DNA of 32,000 nt from Cupriavidus necator (GTDB taxonomy: Bacteria; Pseudomonadota; Gammaproteobacteria; Burkholderiales; Burkholderiaceae). Where the stretch lies: assembly GCF_016127575.1 (NCBI RefSeq), contig NZ_CP066018.1, positions 30,001 to 62,000 on the forward strand, written 5' to 3'. Shown piece after piece: positions 2,030-25,758 of this stretch. The notes under the pieces were generated by a model. The model did no database searches and was not told the origin of the DNA. It was given only the letters and a program-made list of their open reading frames with translations. Made by a program: the position numbers and the translations under genes. Within the stretch, counting starts at the first letter, position 1, and each line of letters begins with the position of its first letter.

Positions 2030-4114
2030 ATGGACCAAGCCGCCAACGCTACCAATCCTCTGCTGGACTTTTCCGACCTGCCCCGCTTTGCCGAGATCCG
2101 GCCCGAGCACATCAGCCCGGCGCTGGACGTGCTGCTGGAACGCGCGCAGCAGGCCGTCGCCCGCGCCGAAGATCCGGCCACGCCCGCCGACTGGAGCAAC
2201 GCCGTGCAGGCGCTGGAAGCGGCCACCGAGCCGCTGGGCCGCGCCTGGGGCGTGGTCAGCCACCTGAGCGCCGTGGCCGATACGCCCGAACTGCGCAAGG
2301 CTCACGCCGAGAACCTGCCGCGCATGACCGAGTTCTGGTCCTCGCTCGGCCAGAGCCTGGCGCTGTATGAGAAGTACAAGGCGCTGGCTGCCAGCCCGGA
2401 GTTCGCCGGCATGAGCGCGGCGCGCCACCAGCTGATCGAGAACGAACTGCGCGGCTTCCGCCTGGGCGGTGCCGAACTGCCTGAAGGCAAGAAGCCGCGC
2501 TTCGCCGAGATCCAGGAGCAGCAGGCCCAGCTGTCCAAGGCCTTTTCCGACCACGTGCTGGATGCCACCAACGCCTACGCGCTGCATGTCGAGGACGAGG
2601 GCCGCCTGTCCGGCCTGCCCGATGACGCCAGGGAAGCCGCCCGCCATGCCGCAGAGAAGGATGGCAAGGCCGGCTGGAAATTCACGCTGCACTTCCCGTC
2701 CTACTTCCCGGTGCTGCAGTACGCGGACGACCGCGCGCTGCGCCAGACCCTGTATGTAGCCAATGTAACGCGCGCCTCGGAACTGGGCCCGCAGCATGGT
2801 CAGGGCCAGGCCGACTGGGACAATACCGCCAATATGCGCGAGCAGCTGGCCCTGCGCCGCGAAGAGGCGCAGATGCTGGGCTACCAGTGCTACGGCGAAG
2901 TCTCGCTGGTGCCGAAGATGGCCGAATCGCCGGCCGAGGTGCTGAAGTTCCTCGACGAGCTCGCCGTCAAGGCGCGCCCCTACGCCGAGAAGGACTGGGC
3001 CGAAATGAAGGCCTTTGCCGCCGCAGAGCTGGGGCTGCCTGAGCTGGCGCCATGGGATGTCGCCTATGCCTCGGAGAAGCTGCGCCAGCAGCGCTATGCG
3101 TTCTCCGAGCAAGAGGTCAAGCAGTACTTCCCGGAAGCGAAGGTGCTCGAGGGCCTGTTCGGCGTGGTGCAGAAGCTGTTCTCGGTGCGCATCGAGCCCG
3201 AGCAGGCGCAGACCTGGCACAAGGACGCGCGCTTCTTCCGCGTCACCACCGCCGACGGCACGCTGCTGGCCCAGTTCTACATCGACCTGTACGCGCGCGA
3301 AGGCAAGCGCGGCGGCGCCTGGATGGACGACGCGCGCGGCCGCAAGGTGCTGGAGCAAGGCGGCGTGCAGACGCCGGTGGCCTACCTGACCTGCAACTTC
3401 TCCGCGCCGGTGGGCGACAAGCCCGCGCTGTTCACGCACGATGAAGTGATCACCCTGTTCCATGAGTTCGGCCACGGCCTGCACCACATGCTGACGCAGG
3501 TGGGCGAGCTCGGCGTGTCGGGCATCAACGGCGTGGAATGGGATGCGGTGGAGCTGCCGTCGCAGTTCATGGAGAACTTCTGCTGGGAGTACGAGGTGCT
3601 GACCGGCATGACGCAGCACATCGACACCGGCGAGCCGCTGCCACGCGCGCTGTTCGACCGCATGCTGGCCGCCAAGAACTTCCAGAACGGCATGATGACG
3701 CTGCGCCAGATCGTGTTTTCGTCGTTCGACATGCACCTGCACACCGACTTCGATCCGGCCGGCGCCACCTCGGTGCTGGACCTGTCGCGCCAGATCAACG
3801 ACCGCGTGCACGTGGTGCCACAGCATCCGCTGTCGCGCTGGCCGAACACCTTCAGCCATATCTTCGCCGGCGGCTATGCGGCGGGCTACTACAGCTACAA
3901 GTGGGCCGAGGTGCTGTCGGCCGACGTGTACGCGGCGTTCGAGGAAGCCGCTCAGCTGTCGGGCAGCGTGCTCGACAGCGAGACCGGCGCGCGCTACCAG
4001 CGCGAGATCCTGTCGGTGGGCGGCAGCCGTCCGGCAATGGACTCGTTTGTCGCGTTCCGCGGCCGCGCGCCGCAGATCGACGCGCTGCTGCGCCACGGCG
4101 GGATGGCAGCATGA
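2030..4114 (+). CDS. prlC: Oligopeptidase A (M3 family zinc metallopeptidase)
   Basis: 694 aa with the HEFGH zinc motif (LFHEFGHGLHHML) and an M3-family C-terminus (FSHIFAGGYAAGYYSYKWAEVLSAD). ATG at 2030. Confidence 0.95.
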   Translation: MDQAANATNPLLDFSDLPRFAEIRPEHISPALDVLLERAQQAVARAEDPATPADWSNAVQALEAATEPLGRAWGVVSHLSAVADTPELRKAHAENLPRMTEFWSSLGQSLALYEKYKALAASPEFAGMSAARHQLIENELRGFRLGGAELPEGKKPRFAEIQEQQAQLSKAFSDHVLDATNAYALHVEDEGRLSGLPDDAREAARHAAEKDGKAGWKFTLHFPSYFPVLQYADDRALRQTLYVANVTRASELGPQHGQGQADWDNTANMREQLALRREEAQMLGYQCYGEVSLVPKMAESPAEVLKFLDELAVKARPYAEKDWAEMKAFAAAELGLPELAPWDVAYASEKLRQQRYAFSEQEVKQYFPEAKVLEGLFGVVQKLFSVRIEPEQAQTWHKDARFFRVTTADGTLLAQFYIDLYAREGKRGGAWMDDARGRKVLEQGGVQTPVAYLTCNFSAPVGDKPALFTHDEVITLFHEFGHGLHHMLTQVGELGVSGINGVEWDAVELPSQFMENFCWEYEVLTGMTQHIDTGEPLPRALFDRMLAAKNFQNGMMTLRQIVFSSFDMHLHTDFDPAGATSVLDLSRQINDRVHVVPQHPLSRWPNTFSHIFAGGYAAGYYSYKWAEVLSADVYAAFEEAAQLSGSVLDSETGARYQREILSVGGSRPAMDSFVAFRGRAPQIDALLRHGGMAA

Positions 4115-8066: not shown

Positions 8067-8142
8067 GGGGCGTTAGCTCAGTTGGTAGAGCAGCGGACTC
8101 TTAATCCGTAGGTCGAGTGTTCGAGTCACTCACGCCCCACCA
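8067..8142 (+). tRNA. tRNA-Lys (anticodon CUU), copy 1
   Basis: 76 nt: GGGGCGT acceptor stem pairing with ACGCCCC, then ACCA. D-loop AGCTCAGTTGGTAGAGC. Anticodon arm GCGGA-CTCTTAA-TCCGT (C-U-CUU-A-A). T-arm GTTCGAGTC. Closely resembles E. coli tRNA-Lys. Confidence 0.93.
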
Positions 8143-8258: not shown

Positions 8259-9647
8259 TCAGGCGCCCTGGCTGGCGCGCTCGAACAGCGTACGTGCCAG
8301 CGCGCGATGGCACAGCAGCACGTTGGGCAGGTCGACCGTCAGCAGTGCACCGTCGCGCACCACTTCCCTGCCGTTGATCACGCTCGCCGCGACATTGGCC
8401 GGCGTGCAGAACACCAGCGCCGCCACCGGGTCATGGCCGGCGCCGGCAAAGCCGACCTGCGACATGTCGAAGGCGACAAAATCCGCCGACATGCCCGGCG
8501 CCAGCGCACCGATATCGTCGCGGTTGAGCACGCGCGCGCCACCCAGCGTGGCAATCTCCAGCGCCTCGCGCGCGCTCATGGCGGCCGGCCCGTAGCCAAC
8601 GCGCTGCAGCAGCATGGCCTGGCGCGCCTCGCCCAGCATATGCGCGCCGTCGTTCGACGCGCTGCCGTCCACGCCCAGGCCCACCGGCACGCCGGCATCG
8701 CGCATGGCGCGCACCGGTGCAATGCCGGATGCCAGCCGCATGTTCGAGCACGGGCAATGCGCCACGCCGGTCCCGGTGCGGGCAAACAGTGCGATGCCCT
8801 CGTCGTCCAGCTTGACGCAGTGCGCATGCCACACATCGTGTCCGACCCAGCCCAGGTCCTCGGCATACTGGGCCGGCGTCAGGCCGAATTTCTCACGCGA
8901 GTAGGCAATGTCGTTGTCGTTCTCGGCCAGGTGCGTGTGCAGCGACACGCCATAGTGCCGCGCCATATTGGCCGACTCGCGCATCAGGTCGCGTGACACC
9001 GAAAACGGCGAGCACGGCGCCAGCACCACGCGCAGCATCGCGTGGCGCGCACTGTCGTGGTACTGCTCCACCAGCCGCTGGCTGTCGCGCAGGATGGCGG
9101 CCTCCTCTTCCACCACCACGTCCGGCGGCAGGCCGCCCTTGCTGCGGCCCACGCTCATCGAGCCGCGCGCGGCGTGGAAGCGCATGCCCATCTCCTGCGC
9201 CGCGGCAATCGAGTCATCCAGGCGCGACCCGTTCGGGAACAAGTAGAGGTGGTCGCTGGTGGTGGTGCAGCCCGACAGCATCAGCTCGGCCATCGCGGTC
9301 TTGGTCGACACCGCGATCATTTCCGGCGTCAGGTGCGACCACAGCATGTACAGGTTGGTCAGCCACGAGAACAGCTCGGCGTCCTGCGCGGCTGGCACCG
9401 CGCGCGTCAGGCTCTGGTACATGTGGTGGTGGGTGTTGACCAGACCGGGCGTGACCACGCGACCGCGCATGTCGAGCACCTGCGCGCTGCCGTCGTCGAC
9501 CATGCGCCGGTACTGCGGCGGCAGTTCCGAGGTCGGGCCGACCCACTGCACGGCGGGGCCTTCGGCAACCAGGGCGCCATCGCGGATCTCGCGGCGCTGC
9601 GCATCCATGGTGACCAGCACGTCGGCGTTCAGGGCAATCAGGGTCAT
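8259..9647 (-). CDS. Amidohydrolase-superfamily deaminase, 8-oxoguanine deaminase-like
   Basis: 462 aa with metal ligand motifs VNTHHHMYQ, HTHLAEN, HCPCSN and GLGVDGSASND. It is collinear, from memory, with Pseudomonas PA0142-type 8-oxoguanine deaminase. ATG at 9647. Confidence 0.82.
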   Translation of the reverse strand: MTLIALNADVLVTMDAQRREIRDGALVAEGPAVQWVGPTSELPPQYRRMVDDGSAQVLDMRGRVVTPGLVNTHHHMYQSLTRAVPAAQDAELFSWLTNLYMLWSHLTPEMIAVSTKTAMAELMLSGCTTTSDHLYLFPNGSRLDDSIAAAQEMGMRFHAARGSMSVGRSKGGLPPDVVVEEEAAILRDSQRLVEQYHDSARHAMLRVVLAPCSPFSVSRDLMRESANMARHYGVSLHTHLAENDNDIAYSREKFGLTPAQYAEDLGWVGHDVWHAHCVKLDDEGIALFARTGTGVAHCPCSNMRLASGIAPVRAMRDAGVPVGLGVDGSASNDGAHMLGEARQAMLLQRVGYGPAAMSAREALEIATLGGARVLNRDDIGALAPGMSADFVAFDMSQVGFAGAGHDPVAALVFCTPANVAASVINGREVVRDGALLTVDLPNVLLCHRALARTLFERASQGA

Positions 9648-9743
9648 GGCGGAATTCCTTCTGCAAAACGAATTGGGGGACTGGATGGCAGCCAGTCTAC
9701 GGCGGCGAAGTGCAATCCCCCAAGCGCAGAATTCCGATCATCC

Positions 9744-9762
9744 TGTCCACAAAAAGTGGACA
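9744..9762. promoter_or_regulatory. Perfect inverted repeat TGTCCAC-N5-GTGGACA between the LysR gene and the deaminase gene (candidate operator)
   Basis: Seen directly: 7-bp arms, A5 spacer. It lies 19 nt downstream of the LysR stop and about 100 nt upstream of the deaminase ATG. Confidence 0.3.
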
Positions 9763-9780
9763 CCTGCGACACCCTGTTGC

Positions 9781-10689
9781 TCAGCGCGCCTGCGCGAACA
9801 AGACCGCCAGCGCGTCGCCGATGCGCTCGGCCATCAGCTCGGCAGCGGCGCTGAGCGGGCCGCGAGCGCGCGCCACCAGCGTCAGCGTCTGGCCCTGCAG
9901 GTGGCGGTCGCGCAGTGGCACGTAGACCAGCGCCTGGCGGGCGCGCTCTTCCATCACATCGAGCGGGTTCAGCAGCGCGATGCCGGTGCCCAGCATCACC
10001 AGTTGCCGGATCAGCGCGGTCGAGGTGGACTCCGCCACCGGCGAGACCTCGATCGCATTGCGGGCAAAGGCCGCATCCAGGATGGCGCGGATCGACAGCG
10101 AGGGCGCCGGCAGGATCAGCGGATAGCCGACGCATTCGCTCAGCAGCGCCGATTGCCGGGCCGCCAGCGCATGGCCCGGCGGCACCACCGCGCCGATCTG
10201 CCAGTCGCTGGTGGCCAGCGCGCGGAAGGCGGGCAGCTCAGGCAGGTCATAGCCAAGGCCCAGGTCGGCGTCGCCCTGCCCCACCGCCGTGGTGATATCG
10301 GCCACCGGCAGGTCGGCGACGCGCACCACGATGCCCGGGTAGCGCTGGCGGAAGTCATGCACCAGCGACGGCATCAGCGAGCCCGCCAGGCCGGCCGTGA
10401 CCGCCACGGTGACCTCGCCGCGGCGCGCGCCCTTGAAGTCCTCGATGCGCTCGCGCAGCGCGTCGTGCTCGCGCAGCGTCTGGCGCACGTGGGCCAGCAC
10501 CATCTCGCCCAGCGGCGTCAGCCGCAGCCGCTTGTTGATGCGCTCGAACAGCGGCGCGCCCAGTTCCGCCTCCAGGTCCAGGATCTGGCGGTTGACCGCG
10601 GTCGGCGCCACATGCAGGTGCTCGGCCGCCTTGCGGATCGAACCGCGGCGGACGACCTCGTCGAGATAGCGCAGGACTCTGGCGTGCAT
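9781..10689 (-). CDS. LysR-family transcriptional regulator
   Basis: MHARVLRYLDEVVRRGSIRKAAEHLHVAPTAVNRQILDLEAELGAPLFERINKRLRLTPLGE is the canonical LysR N-terminal HTH, followed by a substrate-binding domain. The internal ATG (CAT at 10687-10689) was chosen over the TTG-initiated 331-aa track ORF. Confidence 0.9.
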   Translation of the reverse strand: MHARVLRYLDEVVRRGSIRKAAEHLHVAPTAVNRQILDLEAELGAPLFERINKRLRLTPLGEMVLAHVRQTLREHDALRERIEDFKGARRGEVTVAVTAGLAGSLMPSLVHDFRQRYPGIVVRVADLPVADITTAVGQGDADLGLGYDLPELPAFRALATSDWQIGAVVPPGHALAARQSALLSECVGYPLILPAPSLSIRAILDAAFARNAIEVSPVAESTSTALIRQLVMLGTGIALLNPLDVMEERARQALVYVPLRDRHLQGQTLTLVARARGPLSAAAELMAERIGDALAVLFAQAR

Positions 10690-10835: not shown

Positions 10836-10911
10836 GGGGCGTTAGCTCAGTTGGTAGAGCAGCGGACTCTTAATCCGTAGGTCGAGTGTTCGAGTCACTC
10901 ACGCCCCACCA
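10836..10911 (+). tRNA. tRNA-Lys (anticodon CUU), copy 2, identical to copy 1
   Basis: The 76-nt sequence is identical base for base to 8067-8142 by visual alignment. Confidence 0.93.
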
Positions 10912-10953: not shown

Positions 10954-11252
10954 CATTTCCGCCGCGCTGCTTTGCGCGCGCGGTCGGCATGGCTGCCGGT
11001 TTCTTGATACGCGGGTTCTCACCAATTCCCCTGCGCCCGCTTTCCCGGTTGAATCGCATCCGCGCACATTGTGGAACATGGTTCCGTATCGCGGAACTAT
11101 CGCAAGGTGCCGGCCGTCGCCGCATCCCGGCACGGCCCGGTCATGCCAGCGCGGGGAACCGTGACAGCGCGGGGCGCAGACGAAAGGTCTGGGTCCGAAG
11201 AAACGCCTGCAGCCCGCCTGGCGAATCAGTGAAAGAAGAACGGAGGCACTCC

Positions 11253-18600: not shown

Positions 18601-20474
18601 TGTCGGGCGATGTGTTCGGCAACGGCATGCTGCTGTCGCCGCATATCCGGCTGGTGGCGGCTTTCGACCACCGGCATATCTTCCTCGATCCCGACCCGGA
18701 CACGACAAGGAGCCTGCAGGAACGCACGCGGCTGTTCGGCCTGCCCCGCTCAAGCTGGGCCGACTACGACGCCACGCTGATTTCCGCCGGCGGCGGCATC
18801 TATCCGCGCAGCGCCAAGACCATCGCGCTGTCGCCGCAGGTGCAGGCGGTGCTGGGGGTCACGGCAGCCACGCTGTCGCCGGCCGAGCTGATCCACGCCA
18901 TCCTGATGGCGCCGGTCGACCTGCTCTACAACGGCGGCATCGGCACTTACGTCAAGTCCAGCCAGGAAACCCACCTGCAGGCCGGCGACCGCACCAACGA
19001 CGCGGTGCGTGTCAACGGCAATGACCTGCGCTGCAAGGTGGTCGGCGAAGGCGGCAACCTCGGCTTCACCCAGCTGGGCCGCATCGAGTTCGCGCGCAAG
19101 GGCGGGCGCATCAACACCGACGCCATCGACAACTCGGCCGGGGTGGACTGCTCGGACCACGAGGTCAATATCAAGATCCTGCTCGGGCTGGTGGTTGCCG
19201 ACGGCGAAATGACCGAGAAGCAGCGCAACAAGCTGCTGGCCGAGATGACCGACGAGGTCGGCCTGCTGGTGCTGCAGGACAACTACTACCAGACCCAGGC
19301 ACTGTCCGTGGCCGGGCGCAGCAGCCCCGCGCTGCTCGACGGCGAGGCGCGCCTGGTGCGCTGGCTGGAGCGCGCCGGACGGCTCAACCGGCCGCTGGAG
19401 TTCCTGCCTTCGGAGGAAGAAATCGCCGAGCGCAAGCTGGCCGATGAAGGCCTGGCATCGCCCGAGCGTGCCGTGCTGCTTGCCTACAGCAAGATGTGGC
19501 TGTACGACGAACTGCTGGCCTCCGACGTGCCGGAAGACACGCTGGTCGCCGGACTGCTGTCGGACTATTTCCCGGTGCCGCTGCGCCAGCGTTACGCCGA
19601 CGCGATGCAGCGCCACCCGCTGCGGCGCGAGATCCTGTCGACACACCTGACCAATATGCTGGTCAACCGTATCGGCGCCACCTTCGTGCACCGGATCATG
19701 GAAGAGACCGACGCACGCCCGGCCGATATCGTGCGCGCCTGCCTGATCGCACGCGATGTCTTCGGCCTGACCACCCTGTGGCAGGAGATCGATGCGCTGG
19801 ACAACCGTGTGGCCGATGCCGAGCAGGCGCGCATGTTCGGGGCCGTGGCGCTGCTGCTGGAGCGCGCGTGCCTGTGGTTCATCCGCTATCTGCGCAGCGG
19901 CAGCAAGGCCGCCGAGGACCTGGCGCGCTTTGCCCAGGCCGCGCAATGGCTGGCCCCGCAACTGCCGCGGCTGCTGCCGCCGGCCGATGCGACGGCACTG
20001 TCAGAGCGCGCCCGGGCCTTGACGGATGCAGGGGTCGACGAAGCGCTGGCTGTGCGCGTGGCCGGCAGCGAGATCTCCGCCGCCGCGCTCGATATCGCCG
20101 AAGTGGCCACGGCGTGCAAACGCAGCCTGGACCTGGTGGCGGGGGTTTATTTCGCGCTGGACAGCCACCTGAGCTTCAGCTGGCTGCGCGAGCGCGCGCT
20201 GGCGCTGCCATCGGACACGCACTGGGACCTGCTGGCACGCACCACCACGCTGGAAGACCTGGGGCGGCTCAAGCGCGCACTGACCGTCAGCGTGCTGTCA
20301 CAGGAGGGTGAACTGGATACGCCCGACGCCATGATCGATGCCTGGCGCTCCAGCCGTCATGGCGCGCTGGAACGCTTTACGCGCATGCTGGCCGACCAGC
20401 GCGCCTCGGGGGCTGCGGGGCTGTCGATGCTGTCGGTCGCGGTGCGCGAGATCGGCATGCTGGAACGCGCATAG
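15618..20474 (+). CDS. gdhB: NAD-specific glutamate dehydrogenase, large (~180 kDa) GdhB type
   Basis: 1618 aa. ATG at 15618 preceded by GGAGGGA. Family hallmarks include [69 protein letters not shown] and GNGMLLS. Confidence 0.95.
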   Translation: [1618 protein letters not shown]

Positions 20475-20491
20475 CGCTGGCCAGCCCAGGC

Positions 20492-20851
20492 TTATTCGTC
20501 TGCTTCCGCGTCCGTGTCGAGGTCCGCATCGTCGCCGATGCCGGCGCCTGCGCCACGCGGGCGCAGTTCCAGCCCGAGCAGGACCAGCAGGTCGAAGGCA
20601 TCGGAAAGCAGGTGTTTCTGCCTGGGCAGCAGGCTGGCGTACGGCATGTCGTAGATCGACTGGTGCGCGGCACGCTCGCCCTTGAGGCCGCGGTCGCGCG
20701 CGATATCCGACAGCAGCGCGGCAAACCCTGAGAGGTCCTGCGCTGCCAGTGCTGAATTCAATACCTTGGCGATCACTTCCGGCGAAGCGTTCGCCCAGCC
20801 CATGCGTTCAGCATTGGAGGCAGAGTCTTGAGGAGGGTCGGCAAAGTCCAT
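20492..20851 (-). CDS. Degenerate HigA-like 'addiction module antidote' family protein with acidic C-terminal tail; no cognate toxin gene
   Basis: MDFADPPQDS...SPEVIAKVLNSALAAQDLSGFAALLSDIARDRGLKGERAAHQSIYDMP...LSDAFDLLVLLGLELRP parallels, from memory, the antidote-family pattern SxEAIAAYLNxxLEDGDxxLxxxALGDIARARGM...LxKVLxALGLxL. Codon GC3 is high. There is no SD before the ATG at 20851, so the start is uncertain. Confidence 0.5.
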   Translation of the reverse strand: MDFADPPQDSASNAERMGWANASPEVIAKVLNSALAAQDLSGFAALLSDIARDRGLKGERAAHQSIYDMPYASLLPRQKHLLSDAFDLLVLLGLELRPRGAGAGIGDDADLDTDAEADE

Positions 20852-20953
20852 GATTGTGTATAACGGTCCCGCCTGAGCAAGCTTAAGGCGGCAACCATGT
20901 GAATTTGACCCCACATGCGTGGGGTGACATGGCTTGCCGCCCGACGATCCGGG

Positions 20954-21142
20954 CTAGCGCGGTACCGGCTTCGCCGCCACCTGGCGGTAGACCGTGCTGC
21001 CGTCGCGCGCGGTGCGTGCCTGGACGTGATTGCGTGCGCCGCATTGCGGGCAGCGGAACACGGGACCCTGCCCTTCATTGCGGATCTGCACCTCATTCGG
21101 CTCCCAGCGCGCACCGCAAGCCTGGTTCCCACAAACAAACAT
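20954..21142 (-). CDS. 62-aa zinc-ribbon mini-protein (4 Cys), unknown function
   Basis: MFVCGNQACGARWEPNEVQIRNEGQGPVFRCPQCGARNHVQ... has Cys pairs C4/C9 and C31/C34. AAGGAGA lies 5 nt upstream of the ATG (CAT at 21140-21142). GC3 is about 77%. Confidence 0.6.
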   Translation of the reverse strand: MFVCGNQACGARWEPNEVQIRNEGQGPVFRCPQCGARNHVQARTARDGSTVYRQVAAKPVPR

Positions 21143-21192
21143 GAAATCTCCTTGAAACAGACGCCCGAGAGCCTGAGCCGGGCGCGATACGG

Positions 21193-21230
21193 GGCATGGC
21201 CGCACTGCCCGGTGGCGGCGCGGCCATGCC
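21193..21230 (-). other. Strong GC hairpin between the two zinc-ribbon genes (terminator, processing or stabiliser element)
   Basis: GGCATGGCCGC - 16 nt - GCGGCCATGCC gives a perfect 11-bp stem, starting immediately after the stop of the 21234-21467 gene. There is no U-tract. Confidence 0.35.
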
Positions 21231-21233
21231 TGC

Positions 21234-21467
21234 TCAGCCGTCATTATCAGGCCAGTCGACCGGGCGCGGGCCCATTCGCCACATATTCGGCGGCTCACCC
21301 AATGCCGTGCTCTGGTACATCCAGGCGCCGCAGCCCGTGCAGCGCCAGCGGCTGTCGACCTTGCACCGGTTGCTCATGGCCGCAATGCCAGAGGCAGCCA
21401 GGTGCTCGTGTGGCGGCACGCTGGACGGTTCGCCCACCAGCTGATGACACAGGTCACAGGCGTGCAT
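21234..21467 (-). CDS. 77-aa Cys-containing (zinc-ribbon-like) mini-protein, unknown function
   Basis: MHACDLCHQLVGEP...CKVDSRWRCTGCGAWMYQ... has CxxC at the N-terminus and CxxC at residues 43-46. AGGAG lies 5 nt upstream of the ATG (CAT at 21465-21467). GC3 is high. Confidence 0.6.
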   Translation of the reverse strand: MHACDLCHQLVGEPSSVPPHEHLAASGIAAMSNRCKVDSRWRCTGCGAWMYQSTALGEPPNMWRMGPRPVDWPDNDG

Positions 21468-21506
21468 GGCATCTCCTGTCACGGCGATGATTGCGCGGCG
21501 GCGCCC

Positions 21507-21893
21507 TCAGCCATTGTGCTGCACCCATTGCCGCGCCCACGAAATCGCCGCGGCCCGCGCATCTTCGGGCGTGGCGTGCGTGGCCGGCGGCGCGCCGCCC
21601 TCCAGCACCACGGCGCCCGACTCCCAGATATCGCACAGGGCCTTGAACCGCCCCATGCCCAGCGCGTGGCAATACACGTGGATCACGAAGCCGCCGTACT
21701 CCACCACGTCAGTGGCAGTATCGGTCAGCGCCTGATCCGCGGTGGGATCGGACGGCACCAGCGGCACATCGGGCTGGCGCAGCACCCGCCGCTCCGCGGC
21801 CGTGCGCACCAGCATGGCGCAGGCACCGCCCATCGCCGCGCCCAGCACCACGCCCAAACCAAACCAGCAAGCCCTGCTCCCGCACCTCGCCAT
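21507..21893 (-). CDS. 128-aa N-terminally membrane-anchored hypothetical protein (ORF stays open up to a GTG at 22040; start uncertain)
   Basis: MARCGSRACWFGLGVVLGAAMGGACAMLV is a single TM helix or signal anchor. It is followed by a soluble domain, VVEYGGFVIHVYCHALGMGRFKALCDIWESG...TPEDARAAAISWARQWVQHNG. GGGGGA precedes the ATG at 21893. The gene ends 39 nt before the next gene, so it looks operon-linked. Confidence 0.5.
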   Translation of the reverse strand: MARCGSRACWFGLGVVLGAAMGGACAMLVRTAAERRVLRQPDVPLVPSDPTADQALTDTATDVVEYGGFVIHVYCHALGMGRFKALCDIWESGAVVLEGGAPPATHATPEDARAAAISWARQWVQHNG

Positions 21894-22060
21894 GGCATCC
21901 CCCGCAGCGACCCTGCCGGTCCTGGCACGACCATGCTGTGCGACCGGCATCGCTTTCAGGTTATACCAATCCAGGCCGACACCGCCTGCCACCAACTTCG
22001 ACGCGGCAATGGCACAGCGCCGCAGGGTGTGGCGGCGCACGAAAATGAGAATCGTCGGGG

Positions 22061-22089
22061 ATGACCGAAGCGCTGGCCAGAGCTATACT
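22061..22089 (+). promoter_or_regulatory. sigma70-type promoter for the 86-aa ORF
   Basis: -35 ATGACC (22061-22066), a 17-nt spacer, then -10 TATACT (22084-22089). The ATG follows 31 nt after the -10. Confidence 0.5.
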
Positions 22090-22105
22090 GTACATCCATA
22101 CAGTA
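22086..22105. promoter_or_regulatory. LexA operator (SOS box), E. coli / Betaproteobacteria type
   Basis: TACTGT-ACATCCAT-ACAGTA is a perfect CTGT-N8-ACAG with the flanking TA/TA also palindromic (12 fixed positions). It overlaps the -10 hexamer and the predicted transcription start. Confidence 0.72.
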
Positions 22106-22119
22106 TCCGGATACTGCCC

Positions 22120-22380
22120 ATGCCCTTGTACCAGTCCGATTCCATCCTGCTCGAGGCCTACTACTTCGGCGACGACTGCGAATCCCTGCGCCTGCCTTGC
22201 GGCAGTGTCTGCGTGGACGCCGGCGCCATCCTCGTCGACGGCATCGAGCCACTCCAGTTGCAGGCCCTGCGCTGGACGCCGGATTTCCTGTCCTTCGACG
22301 CCCAGGGCACCCGTCACCGCTACCCGGTCAGCCGCCCCGCCCTCGTCGGCCCCGGCCAGGCACGCTTCGCACTGCTTTAA
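22120..22380 (+). CDS. 86-aa hypothetical protein, putatively LexA-regulated
   Basis: MPLYQSDSILLEAYYFGDDCESLRLPCGSVCVDAGAILVDGIEPLQLQALRWTPDFLSFDAQGTRHRYPVSRPALVGPGQARFALL has strongly C/G-ending codons typical of this genome. In-frame codons upstream of 22120 are rare types (AGA, CGA, GTA, ATA, AGT), supporting the 22120 start. The SD is weak. Confidence 0.6.
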   Translation: MPLYQSDSILLEAYYFGDDCESLRLPCGSVCVDAGAILVDGIEPLQLQALRWTPDFLSFDAQGTRHRYPVSRPALVGPGQARFALL

Positions 22381-22423
22381 GCTACGGCTTCCGCATCGCC
22401 GATGCGCCACGCCGCTTGCCCAC

Positions 22424-22930
22424 ATGCCAGACCTCAGCCCGACCGCCAGCCAACTGATCCGCTCGCTCGACCTGCAGCCGCATCCGGAAGGCGGCTACTA
22501 CCGCGAAACCTATCGCGGCGAAGAGCAGGTCGTCTGCCAGGACGGTCGCACACGCGCAGCCTGCACCGCGATCCACTACATGCTGTGCGGCAACGACTAT
22601 TCCGCGTGGCATCGCATCCGGTCCGACGAACTCTGGCACTACCACGCAGGCTCCCCCGTGGACGTGCACCGGATCGTGGACGGCACCATCGTCACGCAGC
22701 GCCTGGGCGACCCGCTGCGGCATCCCGGCGCGGCCTTCCAGGCAATGGTGCCCGCCGGCCAATGGTTTGCCGCCGAACGCGTGGATATGGCCGATGGCGT
22801 GGACTTCGCCCTGGTCGGCTGCACCGTGGCACCAGCCTTCCAGTTCAGCGAATTCGAACTGGCCGACGCAACGGCGCTTGCCGGCCTGGCAAGCGGACAT
22901 GACGCGCTGTTGCGCAGGCTGACGCGCTAG
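22424..22930 (+). CDS. Cupin-fold protein, DUF985 family
   Basis: 168 aa. LIRSLDLQPHPEGGYYRETYR...TAIHYML...SAWHRIRSDELWHYHAGSP...FQAMVPAGQWFAAE...FALVGCTVAPAFQFSEFEL is the characteristic DUF985 pattern. Confidence 0.85.
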   Translation: MPDLSPTASQLIRSLDLQPHPEGGYYRETYRGEEQVVCQDGRTRAACTAIHYMLCGNDYSAWHRIRSDELWHYHAGSPVDVHRIVDGTIVTQRLGDPLRHPGAAFQAMVPAGQWFAAERVDMADGVDFALVGCTVAPAFQFSEFELADATALAGLASGHDALLRRLTR

Positions 22931-22945
22931 TCTCCACCCAAGAAA

Positions 22946-22976
22946 CAGCCCGCCGCGGTGGGGTGCGGGCGGGCTG
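22946..22976 (+). terminator. Hairpin after the cupin gene (possible terminator, no U-tract)
   Basis: CAGCCCGCC - 13 nt - GGCGGGCTG, beginning 16 nt after the stop codon. Confidence 0.35.
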
Positions 22977-23157
22977 GTGAGTACAGCGGGACCAGTCTAA
23001 GCCAGGGTGCCGGCGGGCCATGACGGGAGAACCTGGGTATCTCGCCGCCTTTGCTGGCAACGACCGAGCAGCGCGTATAGCCCAACAGGCACTCAGGATG
23101 CGGATTCATATCCTGCAGCACAGATAATCTTGGGCTCACCCATTATTTGCAGCTACA

Positions 23158-23412
23158 ATTATTGCCAAGGATGTCAGCAACCAGTCCAAGCACGGTGTTT
23201 CGCTCGCGCTGGCAGCAAGGTTCCACTGGCCGAGCCTGTTGGCAGGGGTAGATGACAGGGCCGACTACAGAGAACTCCGCGAGATCGGCTTCGGCGTCAT
23301 TGATGAGCGCCTCTATTGCGTGGTGTTCACCCAGGGCGGGAATGCAATGCATATCATCAGCCTGCGCAAGGCCAACAAACGCGAGGCAAGGAACTATGTC
23401 GACCAAGCCTAA
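23158..23412 (+). CDS. brnT: BrnT-like toxin (DUF497 family) lacking a canonical start codon; possibly ATT-initiated or N-terminally decayed
   Basis: The frame open from 23128 (after TAA at 23125) reads SWAHPLFAATIIAKDVSNQSKHGVSLALAARFHWPSLLAGVDDRADYRELREIGFGVIDERLYCVVFTQGGNAMHIISLRKANKREARNYVDQA, then TAA at 23410-23412. It matches the BrnT motifs K-x3-N-x2-KHG-[VI]-S, D-x-R-x-DY-x-E-x-R and R-IIS-x-RKA-x3-E. There is no ATG, GTG or TTG in frame before the KHG motif. The listed start is the first in-frame ATT. Confidence 0.55.
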   Translation: MIAKDVSNQSKHGVSLALAARFHWPSLLAGVDDRADYRELREIGFGVIDERLYCVVFTQGGNAMHIISLRKANKREARNYVDQA

Positions 23413-23950
23413 GATCGTCGTGCCGACCGACGAAGAGGACGCGGCCATCAACCGCGGCATCGCTGCGGATCCGGACACGTACGAGGTCTCGGCGAAAGAG
23501 ATGCAGGCCATGAAGCCGCTCGGCAAACGCGGCCGCGGTCGACCCAGGCTCGCCAGCACCAAGGAACTGGTGAGCATTCGCTATGACGCGGACATACTGG
23601 ATGCATTCCGCGCCAGCGGGGAAGGTTGGCAGACGCTGATGAACGCAACGCTGAACGTTGCGCTTCAACAGGCCATGGACATTACCTACGTTGGGGGCCC
23701 ACTGCATGGAACCACGGTCCGTGACAACCCCAACACCTTGTCATCCGTTCTCACCTATCGCCCGGTAACAGCCTTCGCGAACGACCCTGCGCGTCAGGCA
23801 ACGTATCGTCGAGTAACCCTCGAACGTACCATTGGAAACAACGTCGAACGCCGCGAGTTCTTTGTGAGTGACAGTCTCACCGACAGCGAAGCCGATTCCC
23901 TGGTCCAGCGAGAAGACCTTTGGCCTATGTCAGAGCCACACCATGCCTGA
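23396..23950 (+). CDS. brnA: BrnA-family antitoxin (DUF4415) fused in frame to a ~90-aa C-terminal extension
   Basis: MSTKPKIVVPTDEEDAAINRGIAADPDTYEVSAKEM...GKRGRGRPRLASTKELVSIRYDADILDAFRASGEGWQTLMNATL matches the BrnA pattern (GRP...V[ST][IL]R[LY]D.D[VI]L..F[RK]A.G.G[YW]QT..N..L). The ATG at 23396 overlaps the brnT-like frame by 17 nt. The ORF then continues for 92 more codons. Confidence 0.78.
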   Translation: MSTKPKIVVPTDEEDAAINRGIAADPDTYEVSAKEMQAMKPLGKRGRGRPRLASTKELVSIRYDADILDAFRASGEGWQTLMNATLNVALQQAMDITYVGGPLHGTTVRDNPNTLSSVLTYRPVTAFANDPARQATYRRVTLERTIGNNVERREFFVSDSLTDSEADSLVQREDLWPMSEPHHA

Positions 23951-24220
23951 GTATTGGATGCAGTCCAATAGGGCAGCTTGGCAGGCTAGCCGGAGTCAGC
24001 CAGCACCGGCCGCGTCAACCAAGCTGCTGATGCAATCGGCGACCTGCCCTTCCCAGGCGTCCGAGTGCTTGCGTGCGTTGCGCATATATGGCGCAAGCTC
24101 CACAGGAAAAGTAAGGACGACAGCAGCGATCGCTATCGTTGCAACAGGTTAGGTAGAAAGCGGGCCTGCTTTTCGCAGTAACAGCCAGCGCCGCGCATGG
24201 CGGGCCGAAAGGTCATGCAC

Positions 24221-24532
24221 TTATCCACGCTTGCATTCGACCTTCTCTTCATATTCACCGTCGTCCTTCCATTCGCGCTCGATCAGGCAAGGGCCGTCGC
24301 GGTACTTCTGCTTCCGCTCATAGCCACGCGGACCGCCCTTGCATTTGCGCTCTTCCTTGTATTCGCCATCGCGCTTCTGTTCGCGTTCGATTTCACAAGG
24401 GCCGCTACGGAATTTCTCTTTGTACTCACCGCCACGATATGCGCTCGGGTAGCCGCGGTCGTCGGCGCGTGCGGCAGCCGCGGCCGTCAGCCAGAGGAGC
24501 GCAAGGGTAGCCACACAGAGCTTTCGGAACAT
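24221..24532 (-). CDS. Small secreted, highly charged protein with two Cys-containing internal repeats (unknown function)
   Basis: Signal peptide MFRKLCVATLALLWLTAAAAARA-DD. Two 28-aa repeats, KFRSGPCEIEREQKRDGEYKEERKCKGG and KYRDGPCLIEREWKDDGEYEEKVECKRG, share 18/28 residues. The SD is weak, and an alternative ATG lies at 24571. Confidence 0.6.
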   Translation of the reverse strand: MFRKLCVATLALLWLTAAAAARADDRGYPSAYRGGEYKEKFRSGPCEIEREQKRDGEYKEERKCKGGPRGYERKQKYRDGPCLIEREWKDDGEYEEKVECKRG

Positions 24533-24630
24533 AAGTGGGGAATCGGTCGGGAGGATGGCAGAGCATAGCAACGGGCATCGGCGACGGCTGTATCAAAGCG
24601 TTACCGCACCGGCCGGCCATTTCCACGCAG

Positions 24631-24667
24631 AAAATAAAAAACCCGCTTGGCTATTCACCAAGCGGGT
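24631..24667 (-). terminator. Rho-independent terminator of tRNA-Pro
   Basis: On the minus strand, ACCCGCTTGGTGAATAGCCAAGCGGGT forms a hairpin followed by TTTTTTATTTT, directly after the tRNA 3' end. Confidence 0.75.
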
Positions 24668-24673
24668 TTTGTC

Positions 24674-24750
<77 letters not shown>

Positions 24751-24759
24751 AAGCAAAAG

Positions 24760-24789
24760 ATTATAACAGAAGCATTTCCCGTATGACTA
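24760..24789 (-). promoter_or_regulatory. Possible sigma70 promoter of tRNA-Pro
   Basis: On the minus strand: TAGTCA, an 18-nt spacer, then a perfect TATAAT (24760-24765) ending 9 nt before the tRNA 5' end. Confidence 0.45.
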
Positions 24790-24805
24790 GCTCCCGACGT
24801 CGAAA

Positions 24806-25231
24806 TTATCCGTGCTTCGCGATCTCCCGCAGTTGCGCGAGCAGGTGCTGCACTTCGACCAGTTCATTGCGCAGGCCGCCGATGTCGACCGACAATGCCG
24901 CCGCATTTTCTTCACCAACTTCTGCGGCCTCAGGCGCTGCCGCTGCCCCACTGTGATGACGGCCTTCATCGAGGCGATTGCGCGCGCCGTTGATGGTGAA
25001 GCCCTGTTCGTAGAGCAGTTCGCGGATGCGGCGGATCAGCAGGACTTCATGGTGCTGGTAGTAGCGGCGATTGCCGCGGCGCTTGACGGGCTTGAGTTGC
25101 GTGAACTCCTGTTCCCAATAGCGCAGGACGTGCGGCTTGACGGCGCAAAGCTCGCTCACCTCACCGATGGTGAAGTAGCGCTTGGCCGGAATCGGCGGCA
25201 ACGCGATGCGATCGCTGGATTTGTCCGACAT
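24806..25231 (-). CDS. MerR-family transcriptional regulator (conserved neighbour of ihfA)
   Basis: 141 aa. YFTIGEVSELCAVKPHVLRYWEQEFTQLKPVKRRGNRRYYQHHEVLLIRRIRELL is the canonical MerR HTH and wing. Confidence 0.88.
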   Translation of the reverse strand: MSDKSSDRIALPPIPAKRYFTIGEVSELCAVKPHVLRYWEQEFTQLKPVKRRGNRRYYQHHEVLLIRRIRELLYEQGFTINGARNRLDEGRHHSGAAAAPEAAEVGEENAAALSVDIGGLRNELVEVQHLLAQLREIAKHG

Positions 25232-25347
25232 GTGGTGTGTAGACGAGCGTCAGGCCATGCCGGCCATGCGGTTGGCGCGCACCAGGTGCGCGCCCAGAAG
25301 CATACCGATGCCGGCTTCGGGAAGCAATCCGCCGTTCGGGTGACGCG

Positions 25348-25758
25348 TCAGCCGACGATGCCGGCGCGTTCTTCCACCAGGCCCTTGAGTTTCTGGCTGG
25401 CGTGGAACGTGACCACGCGGCGCGCGGTGATTGGAATGACTTCGCCGGTCTTGGGATTGCGGCCGGGCCGCTGCGGCTTGTCGCGCAACTGGAAGTTGCC
25501 GAAGCCGGACAGCTTGACGCTGTCGCCCTGCTCCAGCGCTTCGCGGATGACGTCGAAGAAGGCCTCGACCATGTCCTTCGATTCGCGCTTGTTCAGGCCC
25601 ACCTGGTCGAACAGCATCTCGGCGAGTTCGGCCTTGGTCAGCGTGGGAACTTCGGTCGCGCGCGCATCCGGCATAGCGTCGTCAAGGGAGGAAGCCTGCC
25701 GGTCGCTCATCTCACCCAGTGCTGCAGCGGTCATGGAATTCGCGCCTCGATCATTCAT
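25348..25758 (-). CDS. ihfA: Integration host factor subunit alpha (with N-terminal extension; start codon ambiguous among ATGs at 25758, 25734, 25710, 25674)
   Basis: [86 protein letters not shown] is nearly collinear with E. coli IhfA. Confidence 0.9.

What the first reader, a model, noticed from the sequence alone, without database searches (positions are those of the whole stretch)
20492..22930. Candidate uncharacterised stress / TA-like module: divergent small-protein cluster centred on the SOS box
Inference from architecture. In about 2.4 kb there are five or six short genes with no recognisable enzymatic domain. On the minus strand lie an anchored 128-aa protein, a 77-aa Cys protein (39-nt gap, strong SD), a 62-aa zinc ribbon (strong SD) and a HigA-like antidote remnant. 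On the plus strand lie the LexA-box promoter, the 86-aa ORF and the DUF985 cupin. The patch is wedged between housekeeping gdhB and the tRNA-Pro-proximal islet. Small zinc-ribbon proteins, an antitoxin-like DNA binder, a membrane-anchored protein and DNA-damage control are a combination typical of toxin-antitoxin, abortive-infection or prophage-remnant modules. None of the components matches a described system that I know.
Basis: inference. Interest (0 to 1): 0.68.

Follow-up and report, generated by a model that had tools for sequence, protein, structure and literature searches.

The report
Orphan small genes plus a new SOS gene
The six small genes are real and conserved across the genus Cupriavidus, but they are three separate transcription units rather than a toxin-antitoxin or defence module, and only the 86-aa gene, founder of an unannotated protein family, carries a conserved DNA-damage (LexA) switch.

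Summary
Window 20492-22930 (Cupriavidus necator chromosome 1) carries six small genes, all under purifying selection, and a perfect LexA operator (TACTGTACATCCATACAGTA, 22086-22105; 0 of 100 shuffles).

The TA/Abi/prophage-module reading is not supported.
- GC content is native. The patch sits between gdhB and tRNA-Pro in 32 Cupriavidus species, with synonymous divergence like gdhB.
- Parts are lost independently: p119 32/32, p128 30/32, p62 27/32, cupin 20/32, p77 6/32.
- There are no PADLOC hits and no toxin partner.
- The "HigA-like remnant" (p119) is an intact, constrained gene with only sub-threshold similarity to an antidote family.
- I infer three transcription units: p128-p77-p62, p119 alone, and LexA-controlled p86-cupin.

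The operator overlaps the -10 of p86 only and is kept in 32 of 33 orthologous loci. p86 founds an unannotated family of small proteins. It models as an all-beta fold (pLDDT 93) with no significant structural relative. Relatives carry the same operator in four other contexts, beside a UvrA-like gene, a Zn-ribbon plus YdjM, a DNA-ligase-domain gene on a plasmid, and SRAP/YedK plus NUDIX. Ralstonia relatives lack the operator and follow an Osa-like fertility-inhibition gene.

Best reading: p86 is a new SOS-regulon member. I infer that it is a non-enzymatic protein-binding effector.

The parts
20492..20851 (-). p119: a 119-aa acidic, mostly helical protein found only in Cupriavidus. Residues 17-96 are conserved and the acidic C-terminal tail is variable.
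   Evidence: The exact sequence is in public genomes. Homologues occur only in Cupriavidus. It is present in 32/32 loci with dN/dS 0.05-0.19. PF21716 gives E 0.05-0.08 in 10 of 22 members, below threshold. phrog_4268 (repressor) gives E 0.014. The AF2 model has pLDDT 57 and returns no fold hit.
20858..20886 (-). Putative own promoter of p119: TTAAGC, 17-nt spacer, TTATAC. The -10 ends 6 nt before the ATG and there is no SD, so the mRNA is probably leaderless. This is an inference.
   Evidence: Read directly from the sequence. The ACCGTTA(A/T/G)AC block just before the ATG is conserved in 18 loci.
20890..20938 (-). Conserved stem-loop after p62. The inner stem is ACCCCAC/GTGGGGT at 20908-20925. 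It is the probable terminator of the p128-p77-p62 unit.
   Evidence: The fold has -24.8 kcal/mol and z -2.7. A hairpin at the same place, with changed stem sequence, is seen in the other clades.
20954..21142 (-). p62: a CxxxxC...CxxC zinc-ribbon protein (pI 9.7). In other species it carries a variable Lys/Pro/Ala-rich basic tail.
   Evidence: Only sub-threshold zinc-ribbon hits. Present in 27/32 loci. Orthologue sequences are. dN/dS is 0.03-0.37.
21234..21467 (-). p77: a Cys-rich (CxxC...CxxC) protein that is very constrained but present in few species.
   Evidence: Present in 6/32 loci at 83-95% identity. dN/dS is 0.04-0.16, with dS 0.9-1.1 to the distant species, so it is ancestral with repeated losses. 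phrog_27215 gives E 5e-4. A 64%-identical relative lies beside a tRNA-Pro att fragment in L046 and L047.
21507..21893 (-). p128: an N-terminal hydrophobic anchor (ACWFGLG...), a variable linker and a conserved 65-aa C-terminal domain (EYRGFVIHVFCHALG...WARQWVQ.NG).
   Evidence: Present in 30/32 loci. DUF6566 and CV_2116 match only at E about 0.05. There is no PDB sequence relative.
21960..21968 (-). Invariant TGGTATAAC (extended -10), about 65 nt upstream of the p128 ATG. It is the putative LexA-independent promoter of the minus-strand unit.
   Evidence: AGGTTATACCAA is conserved (at least 85% per column) in all 17 aligned intergenic regions. It is kept in L033, where p128 itself is absent.
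22061..22089 (+). p86 promoter: ATGACC, 17-nt spacer, TATACT.
   Evidence: It is the only sigma-70-like match in 20300-23300. Both hexamers are conserved across the aligned Cupriavidus loci.
22086..22105 (.). LexA (SOS) operator TACTGTACATCCATACAGTA, overlapping the -10 and the predicted transcription start of p86.
   Evidence: It is the single match in the window, with 0 of 100 shuffles matching. CTGT-N8-ACAG is kept upstream of p86 in 32/33 loci, and L022 has one mismatch.
22120..22380 (+). p86: an 86-aa acidic (pI 4.6), lysine-free, all-beta protein. It is the founder of an unannotated family.
   Evidence: AF2 gives pLDDT 93 and pTM 0.82, with 9 strands and 1 short helix. No significant PDB or BFVD fold match; the best is PilZ-like at E 0.05, TM 0.45-0.5. 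There is no Pfam, NCBIfam, PHROG or PADLOC hit. The family has 28 representatives. dN/dS is 0.11-0.43.
22424..22930 (+). DUF985 (Cupin_5) protein, 43 nt downstream of p86. It is probably co-transcribed in C. necator but is not an obligate partner.
   Evidence: PF06172 matches at E 4.7e-47. Present after p86 in 20/32 loci. In the metallidurans/pauculus clade a convergent enolase-like gene follows p86 directly.
22946..22976 (+). GC-rich hairpin (CAGCCCGCCGC...GCGGGCGGGCTG) that closes the p86-cupin unit.
   Evidence: Read directly from the sequence. The same hairpin follows the cupin in L014. It was not folded.

Best explanation
The patch is not one module. It is a genus-conserved, vertically inherited stretch of Cupriavidus-specific small genes organised as three transcription units.

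1. p128-p77-p62. This unit encodes a membrane-anchored protein and two small zinc-ribbon proteins. It is read from an invariant extended -10 promoter and closed by a conserved hairpin. It is not LexA-controlled.
2. p119. This is a monocistronic, probably leaderless gene for an acidic helical protein. At most it is a very distant, toxin-less relative of an antidote/repressor family.
3. p86(-cupin). Its -10 box and transcription start are covered by a canonical LexA operator.

Mechanism for unit 3: in undamaged cells LexA sits on 22086-22105 and blocks RNA polymerase. After DNA damage, RecA-stimulated LexA self-cleavage frees the promoter, and p86 is made (with the cupin in C. necator).

Shown here: the operator is present, it overlaps the promoter, and it is conserved both in orthologues and in four other genomic contexts. 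Inferred from the established LexA model: repression and induction.

p86 has no catalytic motifs, is acidic and folds as a small beta-barrel-like domain. I therefore infer that it binds and modulates another protein of DNA-damage processing, rather than binding DNA or acting as a toxin. This last step is inference only.

Confidence by part: not a TA or defence module, about 0.8; p86 is LexA-regulated, about 0.85; p86 is a protein-binding effector, about 0.35. The overall figure of 0.6 is for the statement as a whole.
For: Vertical inheritance and reality of the genes:
- The order gdhB | p119 | p62 | p77 | p128 | box | p86 | cupin is found in 32 species, with independent losses.
- dN/dS is 0.03-0.52 and dS resembles gdhB.
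- GC is 63-70% inside the patch, against 57-60% in the adjacent islet.

Separate transcription units:
- There are two separately conserved promoter blocks about 120 bp apart, and L019 has an EF-hand gene between them.
- A conserved hairpin lies after p62.
- A conserved -10-like block abuts the p119 ATG.

SOS control of p86:
- The operator is unique in the window, overlaps the only sigma-70-like promoter, and is kept in 32/33 loci.
- Paralogues and relatives carry the same operator in four other contexts:
  - divergent from a 1962-aa UvrA-like gene (L042, L043);
  - box, then an 87-aa Zn-ribbon, then the p86-like gene, then YdjM (L044);
  - on plasmid p1 of C. pinatubonensis, beside an ATP-dependent DNA-ligase-domain gene (L045);
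  - box, then the p86-like gene, then a 128-aa ORF, then SRAP/YedK, then NUDIX, beside a tRNA-Pro att fragment (L047).

p86 as a folded non-enzyme:
- pLDDT is 93.
- No family or fold match reaches significance.
- pI is 4.6-6.8 in nearly all of the family.
Against: - No expression, LexA-binding or phenotype data exist, and I found no paper describing the gene.
- The unit boundaries, the leaderless p119 start and the terminators are read from conservation, not mapped.
- Ralstonia and more distant p86 relatives have no LexA box, so SOS control is not a property of the whole family.
- The protein-binding role rests only on the lack of other features.
- A p77-like gene lies 1.5 kb from a p86-like gene in L047, and an SOS-controlled Zn-ribbon accompanies p86 relatives in two arrangements. 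A functional link between p86 and small zinc-ribbon proteins is therefore not excluded.
Confidence: 0.6

Rival explanations
1. First reader's reading. The six genes act together as a toxin-antitoxin, abortive-infection or other defence module. p119 is the antitoxin-like DNA binder, one of the small zinc-ribbon or anchored proteins is the toxin, and the SOS box is the trigger.
For: - The genes stay together across the genus.
- p119 has faint similarity to an antidote family and to a phage repressor PHROG.
- p77 has a weak PHROG hit and relatives on IMG/VR contigs.
- A real brnT/brnA remnant and a tRNA-Pro integration site lie next door.
Against: - No PADLOC hit for any component.
- No toxin-family hit next to p119.
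- Components are lost independently (p77 in 6/32 loci, p62 in 27/32, cupin in 20/32, p128 in 30/32) while p119 and p86 persist.
- GC is native and dS resembles gdhB, so there is no sign of mobility.
- The operator is placed to control p86 only.
- p86 relatives elsewhere lack p119, p128 and p62 neighbours.
- No plasmid or viral copies of p128 were found.
Confidence: 0.07
2. Origin hypothesis, compatible with the best explanation. The p86 unit, and possibly p77, is a domesticated remnant of an ancient element integrated at tRNA-Pro. The element was fixed at the base of the genus, and the -10/LexA-box/p86 unit is a portable SOS cassette that also travels on islands and plasmids.
For: - In L047 a 51-nt 3' fragment of tRNA-Pro is followed by the same GCTATACTGTACATCCATACAGT promoter-operator, a p86-like gene, SRAP and NUDIX. 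A p77-like gene lies on the other side of the att fragment.
- L046 shares the p77 flank but has phage genes on the other side.
- A LexA-boxed p86 relative sits on a plasmid.
- Ralstonia relatives sit in islands with integrase, KfrA, IS elements and an Osa-like gene.
- The window patch lies 1.7 kb from tRNA-Pro.
Against: - GC content and dS in the window patch are indistinguishable from the core gene gdhB.
- No att repeat, integrase or transposase lies within 20492-22930.
- No viral-contig relative of p86 was found with the close-family patterns.
Confidence: 0.25
3. p119 is an orphan antitoxin-derived transcription factor that represses the neighbouring p128-p77-p62 unit or itself. The minus-strand genes would then form one small regulatory circuit unrelated to SOS.
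For: - p119 is the best-conserved gene of the patch and is always present.
- Sub-threshold hits to PF21716 and to a repressor PHROG fall on the same residues, 23-57.
- From memory, the rest of the sequence is collinear with the TIGR02684 consensus. This is a lead, not a test.
Against: - Scores are far below the cut-offs: 13 bits against 27, and no NCBIfam hit.
- The AF2 model is poor and gives no HTH fold match.
- A profile search of the PDB finds only designed helical repeats.
- The protein is strongly acidic (pI 4.35), which is unusual for a DNA binder.
Confidence: 0.15

Closest known systems
Lineage-specific LexA-regulated hypothetical genes, such as hypA and hypB predicted in multi-chromosome Betaproteobacteria (Sanchez-Alberola et al. 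2012, PMC3323433)
   Same: A small hypothetical gene behind a canonical CTGT-N8-ACAG operator that is conserved across related species. The same genera were analysed there (Ralstonia eutropha H16, C. metallidurans CH34, C. taiwanensis).
   Different: This is a different gene. hypA in that table is H16_B0943 / Rmet_1637, with two boxes of different sequence. Neither the H16 operator sequence of p86 nor the one found here in the metallidurans/pauculus-clade loci appears in the held text of that paper's supplementary files, one of which was truncated when stored.
DinI-type small SOS-induced modulators (E. coli DinI, 81 aa; comparison from general knowledge)
   Same: About 80-90 aa, acidic, no catalytic motif, directly LexA-repressed. 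DinI is thought to act by binding another protein.
   Different: There is no sequence or fold relation. p86 is predicted all-beta, and its partner is unknown. This says what p86 may work like, not what family it belongs to.
PilZ-like split beta-barrels
   Same: They are the best, though non-significant, Foldseek matches: BcsA PilZ, YcgR and MotI, at E 0.05-0.4 and TM 0.45-0.5.
   Different: The c-di-GMP-binding motifs RxxxR and (D/N)xSxxG are absent from p86 and from the family consensus (sequence, alignment). There is no Pfam PilZ hit.
PF21716 / TIGR02684 'dnstrm_HI1420' addiction-module antidote family (HigA-like), compared with p119
   Same: Faint similarity over residues 23-56, with similar length and helical content.
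   Different: The hit is below threshold, there is no adjacent killer gene, the gene is genus-restricted and vertically inherited, and it has an acidic tail.
Known SOS-associated genes found next to p86 relatives: YdjM (PF04307), SRAP/YedK (PF02586) and UvrA paralogues
   Same: They share an operon or a divergent promoter, and a LexA operator, with p86-family genes.
   Different: p86 shares no domain with any of them. The association is by neighbourhood only.
Osa-like plasmid fertility-inhibition factor (PF22162 PFIN) two-gene cassettes in Ralstonia
   Same: p86 relatives (34-39% identity) lie 16 nt downstream of a called PFIN gene in two homologue clusters (L036/L037 and L049/L050). In the third (L034/L035) DNA matching the PFIN gene's 3' end lies upstream but no PFIN gene is called. 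All are in island or plasmid-like contexts.
   Different: There is no PFIN gene at the Cupriavidus locus. p128 shows no similarity to PFIN, and the Ralstonia copies lack a LexA box.

Membership tests
Type II toxin-antitoxin system (HigBA / dnstrm_HI1420 type) | The antitoxin matches the family model above its curated threshold. | tested here: not met
   PF21716 scores 13.2 bits against a cut-off of 27, at E 0.05-0.08 in 10 of 22 orthologues. There is no NCBIfam hit.
Type II toxin-antitoxin system (HigBA / dnstrm_HI1420 type) | An adjacent, co-transcribed cognate toxin gene. | tested here: not met
   The neighbours are gdhB (convergent) and p62, or p128 where p62 is absent. None hits a toxin family in Pfam, NCBIfam or PADLOC.
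Type II toxin-antitoxin system (HigBA / dnstrm_HI1420 type) | Toxicity of one component, neutralised by the other. | not testable with these tools
   This needs expression experiments.
Anti-phage defence system / defence island | At least one component matches a model of a known or candidate defence system. | tested here: not met
   All six proteins give 0 families in PADLOC-DB at E <= 0.1.
Anti-phage defence system / defence island | Patchy, horizontally mobile distribution with atypical composition. | tested here: not met
   The position is the same in 32 species, dS resembles gdhB, and GC is 63-70% as in the flanking core genes.
LexA (SOS) regulon, for p86 | A canonical proteobacterial operator CTGT-N8-ACAG within the promoter. 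| tested here: met
   TACTGTACATCCATACAGTA at 22086-22105 overlaps the -10 TATACT at 22084-22089. It matches in 0 of 100 shuffles.
LexA (SOS) regulon, for p86 | The operator is conserved upstream of orthologues and paralogues. | tested here: met
   32/33 orthologous loci have it perfect and one has a single mismatch. Four further contexts with p86 relatives carry it.
LexA (SOS) regulon, for p86 | LexA binding, and RecA/LexA-dependent induction by DNA damage. | not testable with these tools
   No expression or binding data were found in the literature searched.
LexA (SOS) regulon, for the minus-strand genes p128, p77, p62 and p119 | An operator overlapping or immediately downstream of their promoter. 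| tested here: not met
   The window has only one box. It lies about 120 bp upstream of the conserved minus-strand extended -10, and in L019 a whole gene separates the two.
Cupin_5 / DUF985, for the 168-aa protein | A Pfam PF06172 match above the gathering score. | tested here: met
   160 bits against a cut-off of 25, covering the full-length profile.
PilZ domain, for p86 | A significant fold or sequence match, and the RxxxR plus (D/N)xSxxG c-di-GMP motifs. | tested here: not met
   Foldseek gives E >= 0.05 and TM <= 0.5. There is no Pfam hit. The motifs are absent from the sequence and from the family alignment.
DUF6566 / CV_2116 domain, for the p128 C-terminal domain | A match above the curated threshold. 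| tested here: inconclusive
   14 bits against 26.7, at E about 0.05, in 4 of 12 orthologues. NF046097 scores 13.9 bits against 58.

The most novel reading that the evidence does not exclude
p86 defines a previously undescribed family of small beta-barrel SOS effectors. The family moves between chromosomes, plasmids and tRNA-integrated islands together with its own -10/LexA-operator cassette. It acts by binding a DNA-damage-processing or cell-cycle protein, for example as a modulator of repair, translesion synthesis or division in a lineage where no SulA-type inhibitor is listed in the predicted SOS regulon. It possibly works with a small SOS-controlled zinc-ribbon protein.
Probability: 0.3. 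Interest if true: 0.65.

Novelty: new member of a known kind. Interest (0 to 1): 0.42.

Why it matters
SOS regulons outside E. coli still contain lineage-specific genes of unknown role. Several key effectors, such as division inhibitors and modulators of RecA or of error-prone polymerases, are unidentified in Betaproteobacteria.

p86 is a cleanly defined candidate.
- It has a confident fold model and a perfect operator conserved throughout the genus.
- It recurs next to UvrA-like, SRAP/YedK, YdjM and DNA-ligase-domain genes.
- It sits in a genetically tractable industrial organism, C. necator H16.

The work also removes a false lead. The patch should not be catalogued as a TA or defence system.

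For annotation, it supplies start sites and evidence of constraint for six 'hypothetical' genes. It also shows that p119 is a conserved gene, not an antitoxin remnant.

Tried and rejected
- **Family scans.** Pfam, NCBIfam, PHROG and PADLOC scans of all six proteins found only Cupin_5 above threshold.
- **p119 as HigA.** I tried a profile search against PDB sequences, scans of each orthologue, an AF2 model (pLDDT 57) and Foldseek. None gave support, and the model is too poor for the fold search to count either way. tblastn against plasmids found only an unannotated fragment on a Cupriavidus plasmid.
- **p86 fold.** Foldseek against PDB and BFVD gave nothing below E 0.02. I rejected PilZ likeness as membership.
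- **p128.** DUF6566 stays sub-threshold in orthologues. There is no PDB relative, no similarity to PFIN, no plasmid or viral relatives, and no significant relation to the 'HYRGYVI' ORF beside p77-like in L047 (hhalign probability 10%).
- **Zinc-ribbon relations.** The similarity of the SOS-controlled zr85 to p62 or p77 is confined to the CxxC knuckle. I did not accept it as homology.
- **Rfam.** No RNA family lies in 20000-25500 except tRNA-Pro.
- **Literature.** I found no paper on this gene, on Cupriavidus SOS transcriptomics, or on a DUF985 function relevant here.
- **Prophage origin of p119.** I considered this because of L048 and rejected it. The match is at the very edge of a predicted viral contig, so it is probably host flank.

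Full report
**Source and gene content**

The window comes from Cupriavidus necator. The six exact protein sequences are gene calls on chromosome-sized C. necator and other Cupriavidus contigs. All are named hypothetical protein except the cupin.

The ORF list and sequence give these genes on the minus strand:
- p119, 20492-20851.
- p62, 20954-21142.
- p77, 21234-21467.
- p128, 21507-21893.

On the plus strand:
- p86, 22120-22380.
- A 168-aa protein, 22424-22930.

gdhB ends at 20474. A tRNA-Pro(GGG) gene lies at 24674-24750.

Only the 168-aa protein has a family assignment above threshold: Cupin_5/DUF985, E 4.7e-47. p62 gives many sub-threshold zinc-ribbon hits. p128 gives E about 0.05 to DUF6566 and CV_2116. 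p119, p77 and p86 give nothing in Pfam or NCBIfam.

**Are the genes and the box real?**

I fetched the orthologous locus from 33 Cupriavidus species representatives, two of them mislabelled Ralstonia, and mapped all window proteins onto them. One locus, L012, is a 1.2-kb contig.

The other 32 loci share the order gdhB > | < p119 | < p62 | < p77 | < p128 | box | p86 > | cupin >. Occupancy is:
- p119 32/32.
- p86 32/32.
- p128 30/32.
- p62 27/32.
- cupin 20/32.
- p77 6/32.

Nei-Gojobori estimates against 11 species give dN/dS of 0.03-0.52 for every gene. The dS values rise in step with those of the gdhB 3' end.

All six genes are therefore protein-coding and under purifying selection, and they have diverged with the host. 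p77 is the most constrained (0.04-0.16). Its dS of 0.9-1.1 to the distant species shows that its sparse distribution reflects repeated loss, not recent transfer.

GC content is 63-70% across the patch, like the flanking core genes. It drops to 57-60% only in the islet at 23000-24800.

CTGT-N8-ACAG occurs once in the window, with 0.28 expected by chance. The 20-nt palindrome TACTGTACATCCATACAGTA occurs once, even allowing one mismatch, and in 0 of 100 shuffles.

**Transcription architecture**

The only sigma-70-like match in 20300-23300 is ATGACC-17-TATACT at 22061-22089 on the plus strand. Its -10 overlaps the operator.

An alignment of 17 p128-p86 intergenic regions shows two separately conserved blocks.
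- (A/G)TGAC-N17-TATACTGTAYATNCATACAGTAT, in front of p86. The metallidurans-clade loci L024 and L031 keep the operator but have CACGG/CACTG in place of the -35-like hexamer.
- AGGTTATACCAA, about 120 bp away. On the minus strand this reads TGGTATAAC, an extended -10, about 65 nt before the p128 ATG.

In L019 an EF-hand gene is inserted between the two blocks. In L033 the block persists although p128 is gone. The operator is thus placed to repress p86 and not the minus-strand genes.

After p62 there is a stable hairpin, -24.8 kcal/mol with z -2.7. A hairpin at the same place, with changed stem sequence, is seen in the other clades.

p119 has no Shine-Dalgarno sequence. A conserved ACCGTTA(A/T/G)AC block ends 6 nt before its ATG. 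With TTAAGC 17 nt upstream, this reads as a promoter for a leaderless mRNA. That reading is an inference.

I therefore read three units:
1. p128-p77-p62.
2. p119.
3. LexA-controlled p86, plus the cupin.

In the metallidurans/pauculus clade p86 is monocistronic, and a convergent enolase-like gene follows it.

**The SOS gene p86**

The operator is present upstream of p86 in 32 of 33 loci. L022 has CTGG in place of CTGT.

Word-indexed searching finds p86 only in Cupriavidus, at 63% identity or more. An exhaustive profile search finds 28 cluster representatives of 37-4282 aa; the full-length small members are 86-110 aa. A second indexed search with the broadened alignment adds Ralstonia members.

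The AF2 model is confident (pLDDT 93.4, pTM 0.82), with nine strands and one short helix. Foldseek finds nothing significant in PDB or BFVD. The best matches are PilZ-type split barrels at E 0.05-0.1 and TM 0.45-0.5. The c-di-GMP motifs are absent.

The family is acidic to neutral, and the Cupriavidus members have no lysine. Only E12, C27, W52 and F83 are invariant across the broad alignment.

**Contexts of p86 relatives**

| Context | Loci | LexA box | Neighbours |
|---|---|---|---|
| C. malaysiensis-type second replicon | L042, L043 | ATACTGTATATCCGTACAGTAT, 42 nt before the gene | Divergent from a 1962-aa UvrA-like gene |
| Same sample, another locus | L044 | ATACTGTATATTCATACAGTAT | Box, 87-aa zinc-ribbon ORF, p86-like (2-nt gap), YdjM |
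| C. pinatubonensis HN-2 plasmid p1 | L045 | ATACTGTATATTTATACAGTAT, about 25 nt before the annotated start | After an ATP-dependent DNA-ligase-domain gene |
| IMG/VR contig | L047 | GCTATACTGTACATCCATACAGT, the same -10/operator string as in the window | 51-nt 3' fragment of tRNA-Pro, box, p86-like, 128-aa ORF, SRAP/YedK, NUDIX |
| Ralstonia, three homologue clusters | L034-L037, L049, L050 | None | 16 nt after an Osa-like PFIN gene (PF22162) in L036/L037 and L049/L050; only DNA matching the PFIN 3' end in L034/L035. Islands with integrase, KfrA, IS or metal-resistance genes |
| Distant 108-110-aa group | L038-L041, L051, L052 | None | Beside an IS200-type transposase, a tRNA plus integrase, or an HNH gene |

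None of these loci holds a p119, p128 or p62 relative. The only overlap with the minus-strand genes is a p77-like gene (64% identity) in L046 and L047, on the other side of the att fragment.

Six Cupriavidus species have a second operator directly after the cupin terminator. It drives an 82-aa zinc-ribbon gene (zr85) that is 48% identical to the zinc-ribbon preceding the p86 paralogue in L044. In the window the low-GC islet replaces this site.

**The minus-strand proteins**

*p119.*
- It is found only in Cupriavidus.
- It is acidic (pI 4.35) and predicted helical with low confidence.
- It hits PF21716 (addiction-module antidote) at E 0.05-0.08 in 10 of 22 orthologues, and a repressor PHROG at E 0.014. 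Both hits fall on residues 23-57.
- That is a hint of distant ancestry, not membership.
- There is no killer gene beside it, and it is as constrained as gdhB.

*p62.*
- The zinc ribbon is invariant.
- In other species it carries a Lys/Pro/Ala-rich basic tail of variable length.
- That tail would suit nucleic-acid binding, which is an inference.

*p128.*
- The anchor (ACWF.G) and a 65-aa C-terminal domain are conserved, and the linker is free to vary.

No PADLOC model matches any of the six proteins.

**Literature**

The comparative SOS analysis of multi-chromosome bacteria covered H16, CH34 and C. taiwanensis. It lists two hypothetical LexA-regulated genes in Betaproteobacteria. Its hypA is H16_B0943 / Rmet_1637, and the p86 operator sequences are absent from the held text of its supplements, one file of which was truncated when stored (PMC3323433). 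Other searches found nothing on this gene.

**Verdict**

The unified TA/Abi/prophage-module interpretation is not supported.

What remains of interest is p86. It is a new member of the LexA regulon, with very good comparative support for its regulation. It founds an unannotated protein family that recurs next to DNA-repair genes and on mobile elements.

Its molecular action is unknown. I commit, at low confidence, to a non-enzymatic protein-binding modulator of DNA-damage processing.

Noticed in passing
window 23239-23950: A truncated BrnT toxin (57-aa ORF covering only profile positions 32-77 of 77) overlaps a BrnA-antitoxin gene extended to 184 aa. Both lie inside the low-GC (57-60%) islet next to tRNA-Pro. 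This is the only recognisable TA, and it is degenerate. It lies outside the finding.
   Followed up: partly
L008, L010, L011, L013, L014, L015 at about 10960-11250; window about 23060-23080: In six Cupriavidus species a second perfect LexA box directly after the cupin terminator drives an 82-aa zinc-ribbon gene (zr85). In the window, similarity to these loci stops just where the -10 and box would begin, and the brnTA islet follows. H16 has therefore lost this SOS gene at this site.
   Followed up: partly
L044 5648-7088: An apparent SOS operon: LexA box, then an 87-aa zinc-ribbon (48% identical to zr85), then a p86 paralogue, then YdjM. It links the zinc-ribbon and p86 families in a second arrangement.
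   Followed up: partly
L047 2179-3760; L046 about 3780-3900: A 51-nt 3' fragment of tRNA-Pro (att-like) separates a LexA-controlled p86-like/128-aa/SRAP/NUDIX unit from a p77-like gene. L046 has the same p77 flank but phage genes on the other side. This suggests alternative elements at one tRNA-Pro site.
   Followed up: partly
L036 5520-6261, L037 4033-4774, L049 3517-4258: In Ralstonia, p86 relatives lie 16 nt downstream of an Osa-like plasmid fertility-inhibition (PFIN, PF22162) gene, in island or plasmid-like contexts. This is a recurrent two-gene cassette of unknown meaning.
   Followed up: partly
L019 about 9560-9900: An EF-hand protein gene is inserted between the p128 promoter and the p86 promoter in Cupriavidus sp. 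IDO.
   Followed up: yes
L004 about 9133-9816: p128 and p62 read as one fused ORF in C. nantongensis. This is either a frameshift or an assembly error near the end of p128.
   Followed up: no
window 22041-22054 and the aligned loci: An A-rich block GAAA(A/T)TGAGAATC between the two divergent promoters is conserved in the necator and metallidurans clades but not in the pinatubonensis clade. It has no assigned role.
   Followed up: no
NZ_AP025174.1 203617-203778 (hit H2): An unannotated fragment 80% identical to p119 residues 15-70 lies on a 356-kb plasmid of Cupriavidus sp. P-10.
   Followed up: no
window 24221-24571 (-): A 116-aa ORF with a signal-peptide-like N-terminus and three repeats of a C-x-I/E-REx-K-DGEY-E motif. 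It has no Pfam hit and lies in the low-GC islet.
   Followed up: no
window 8067-8142 and 10836-10911: Two tRNA-Lys(CTT) genes lie 2.7 kb apart on the plus strand.
   Followed up: no
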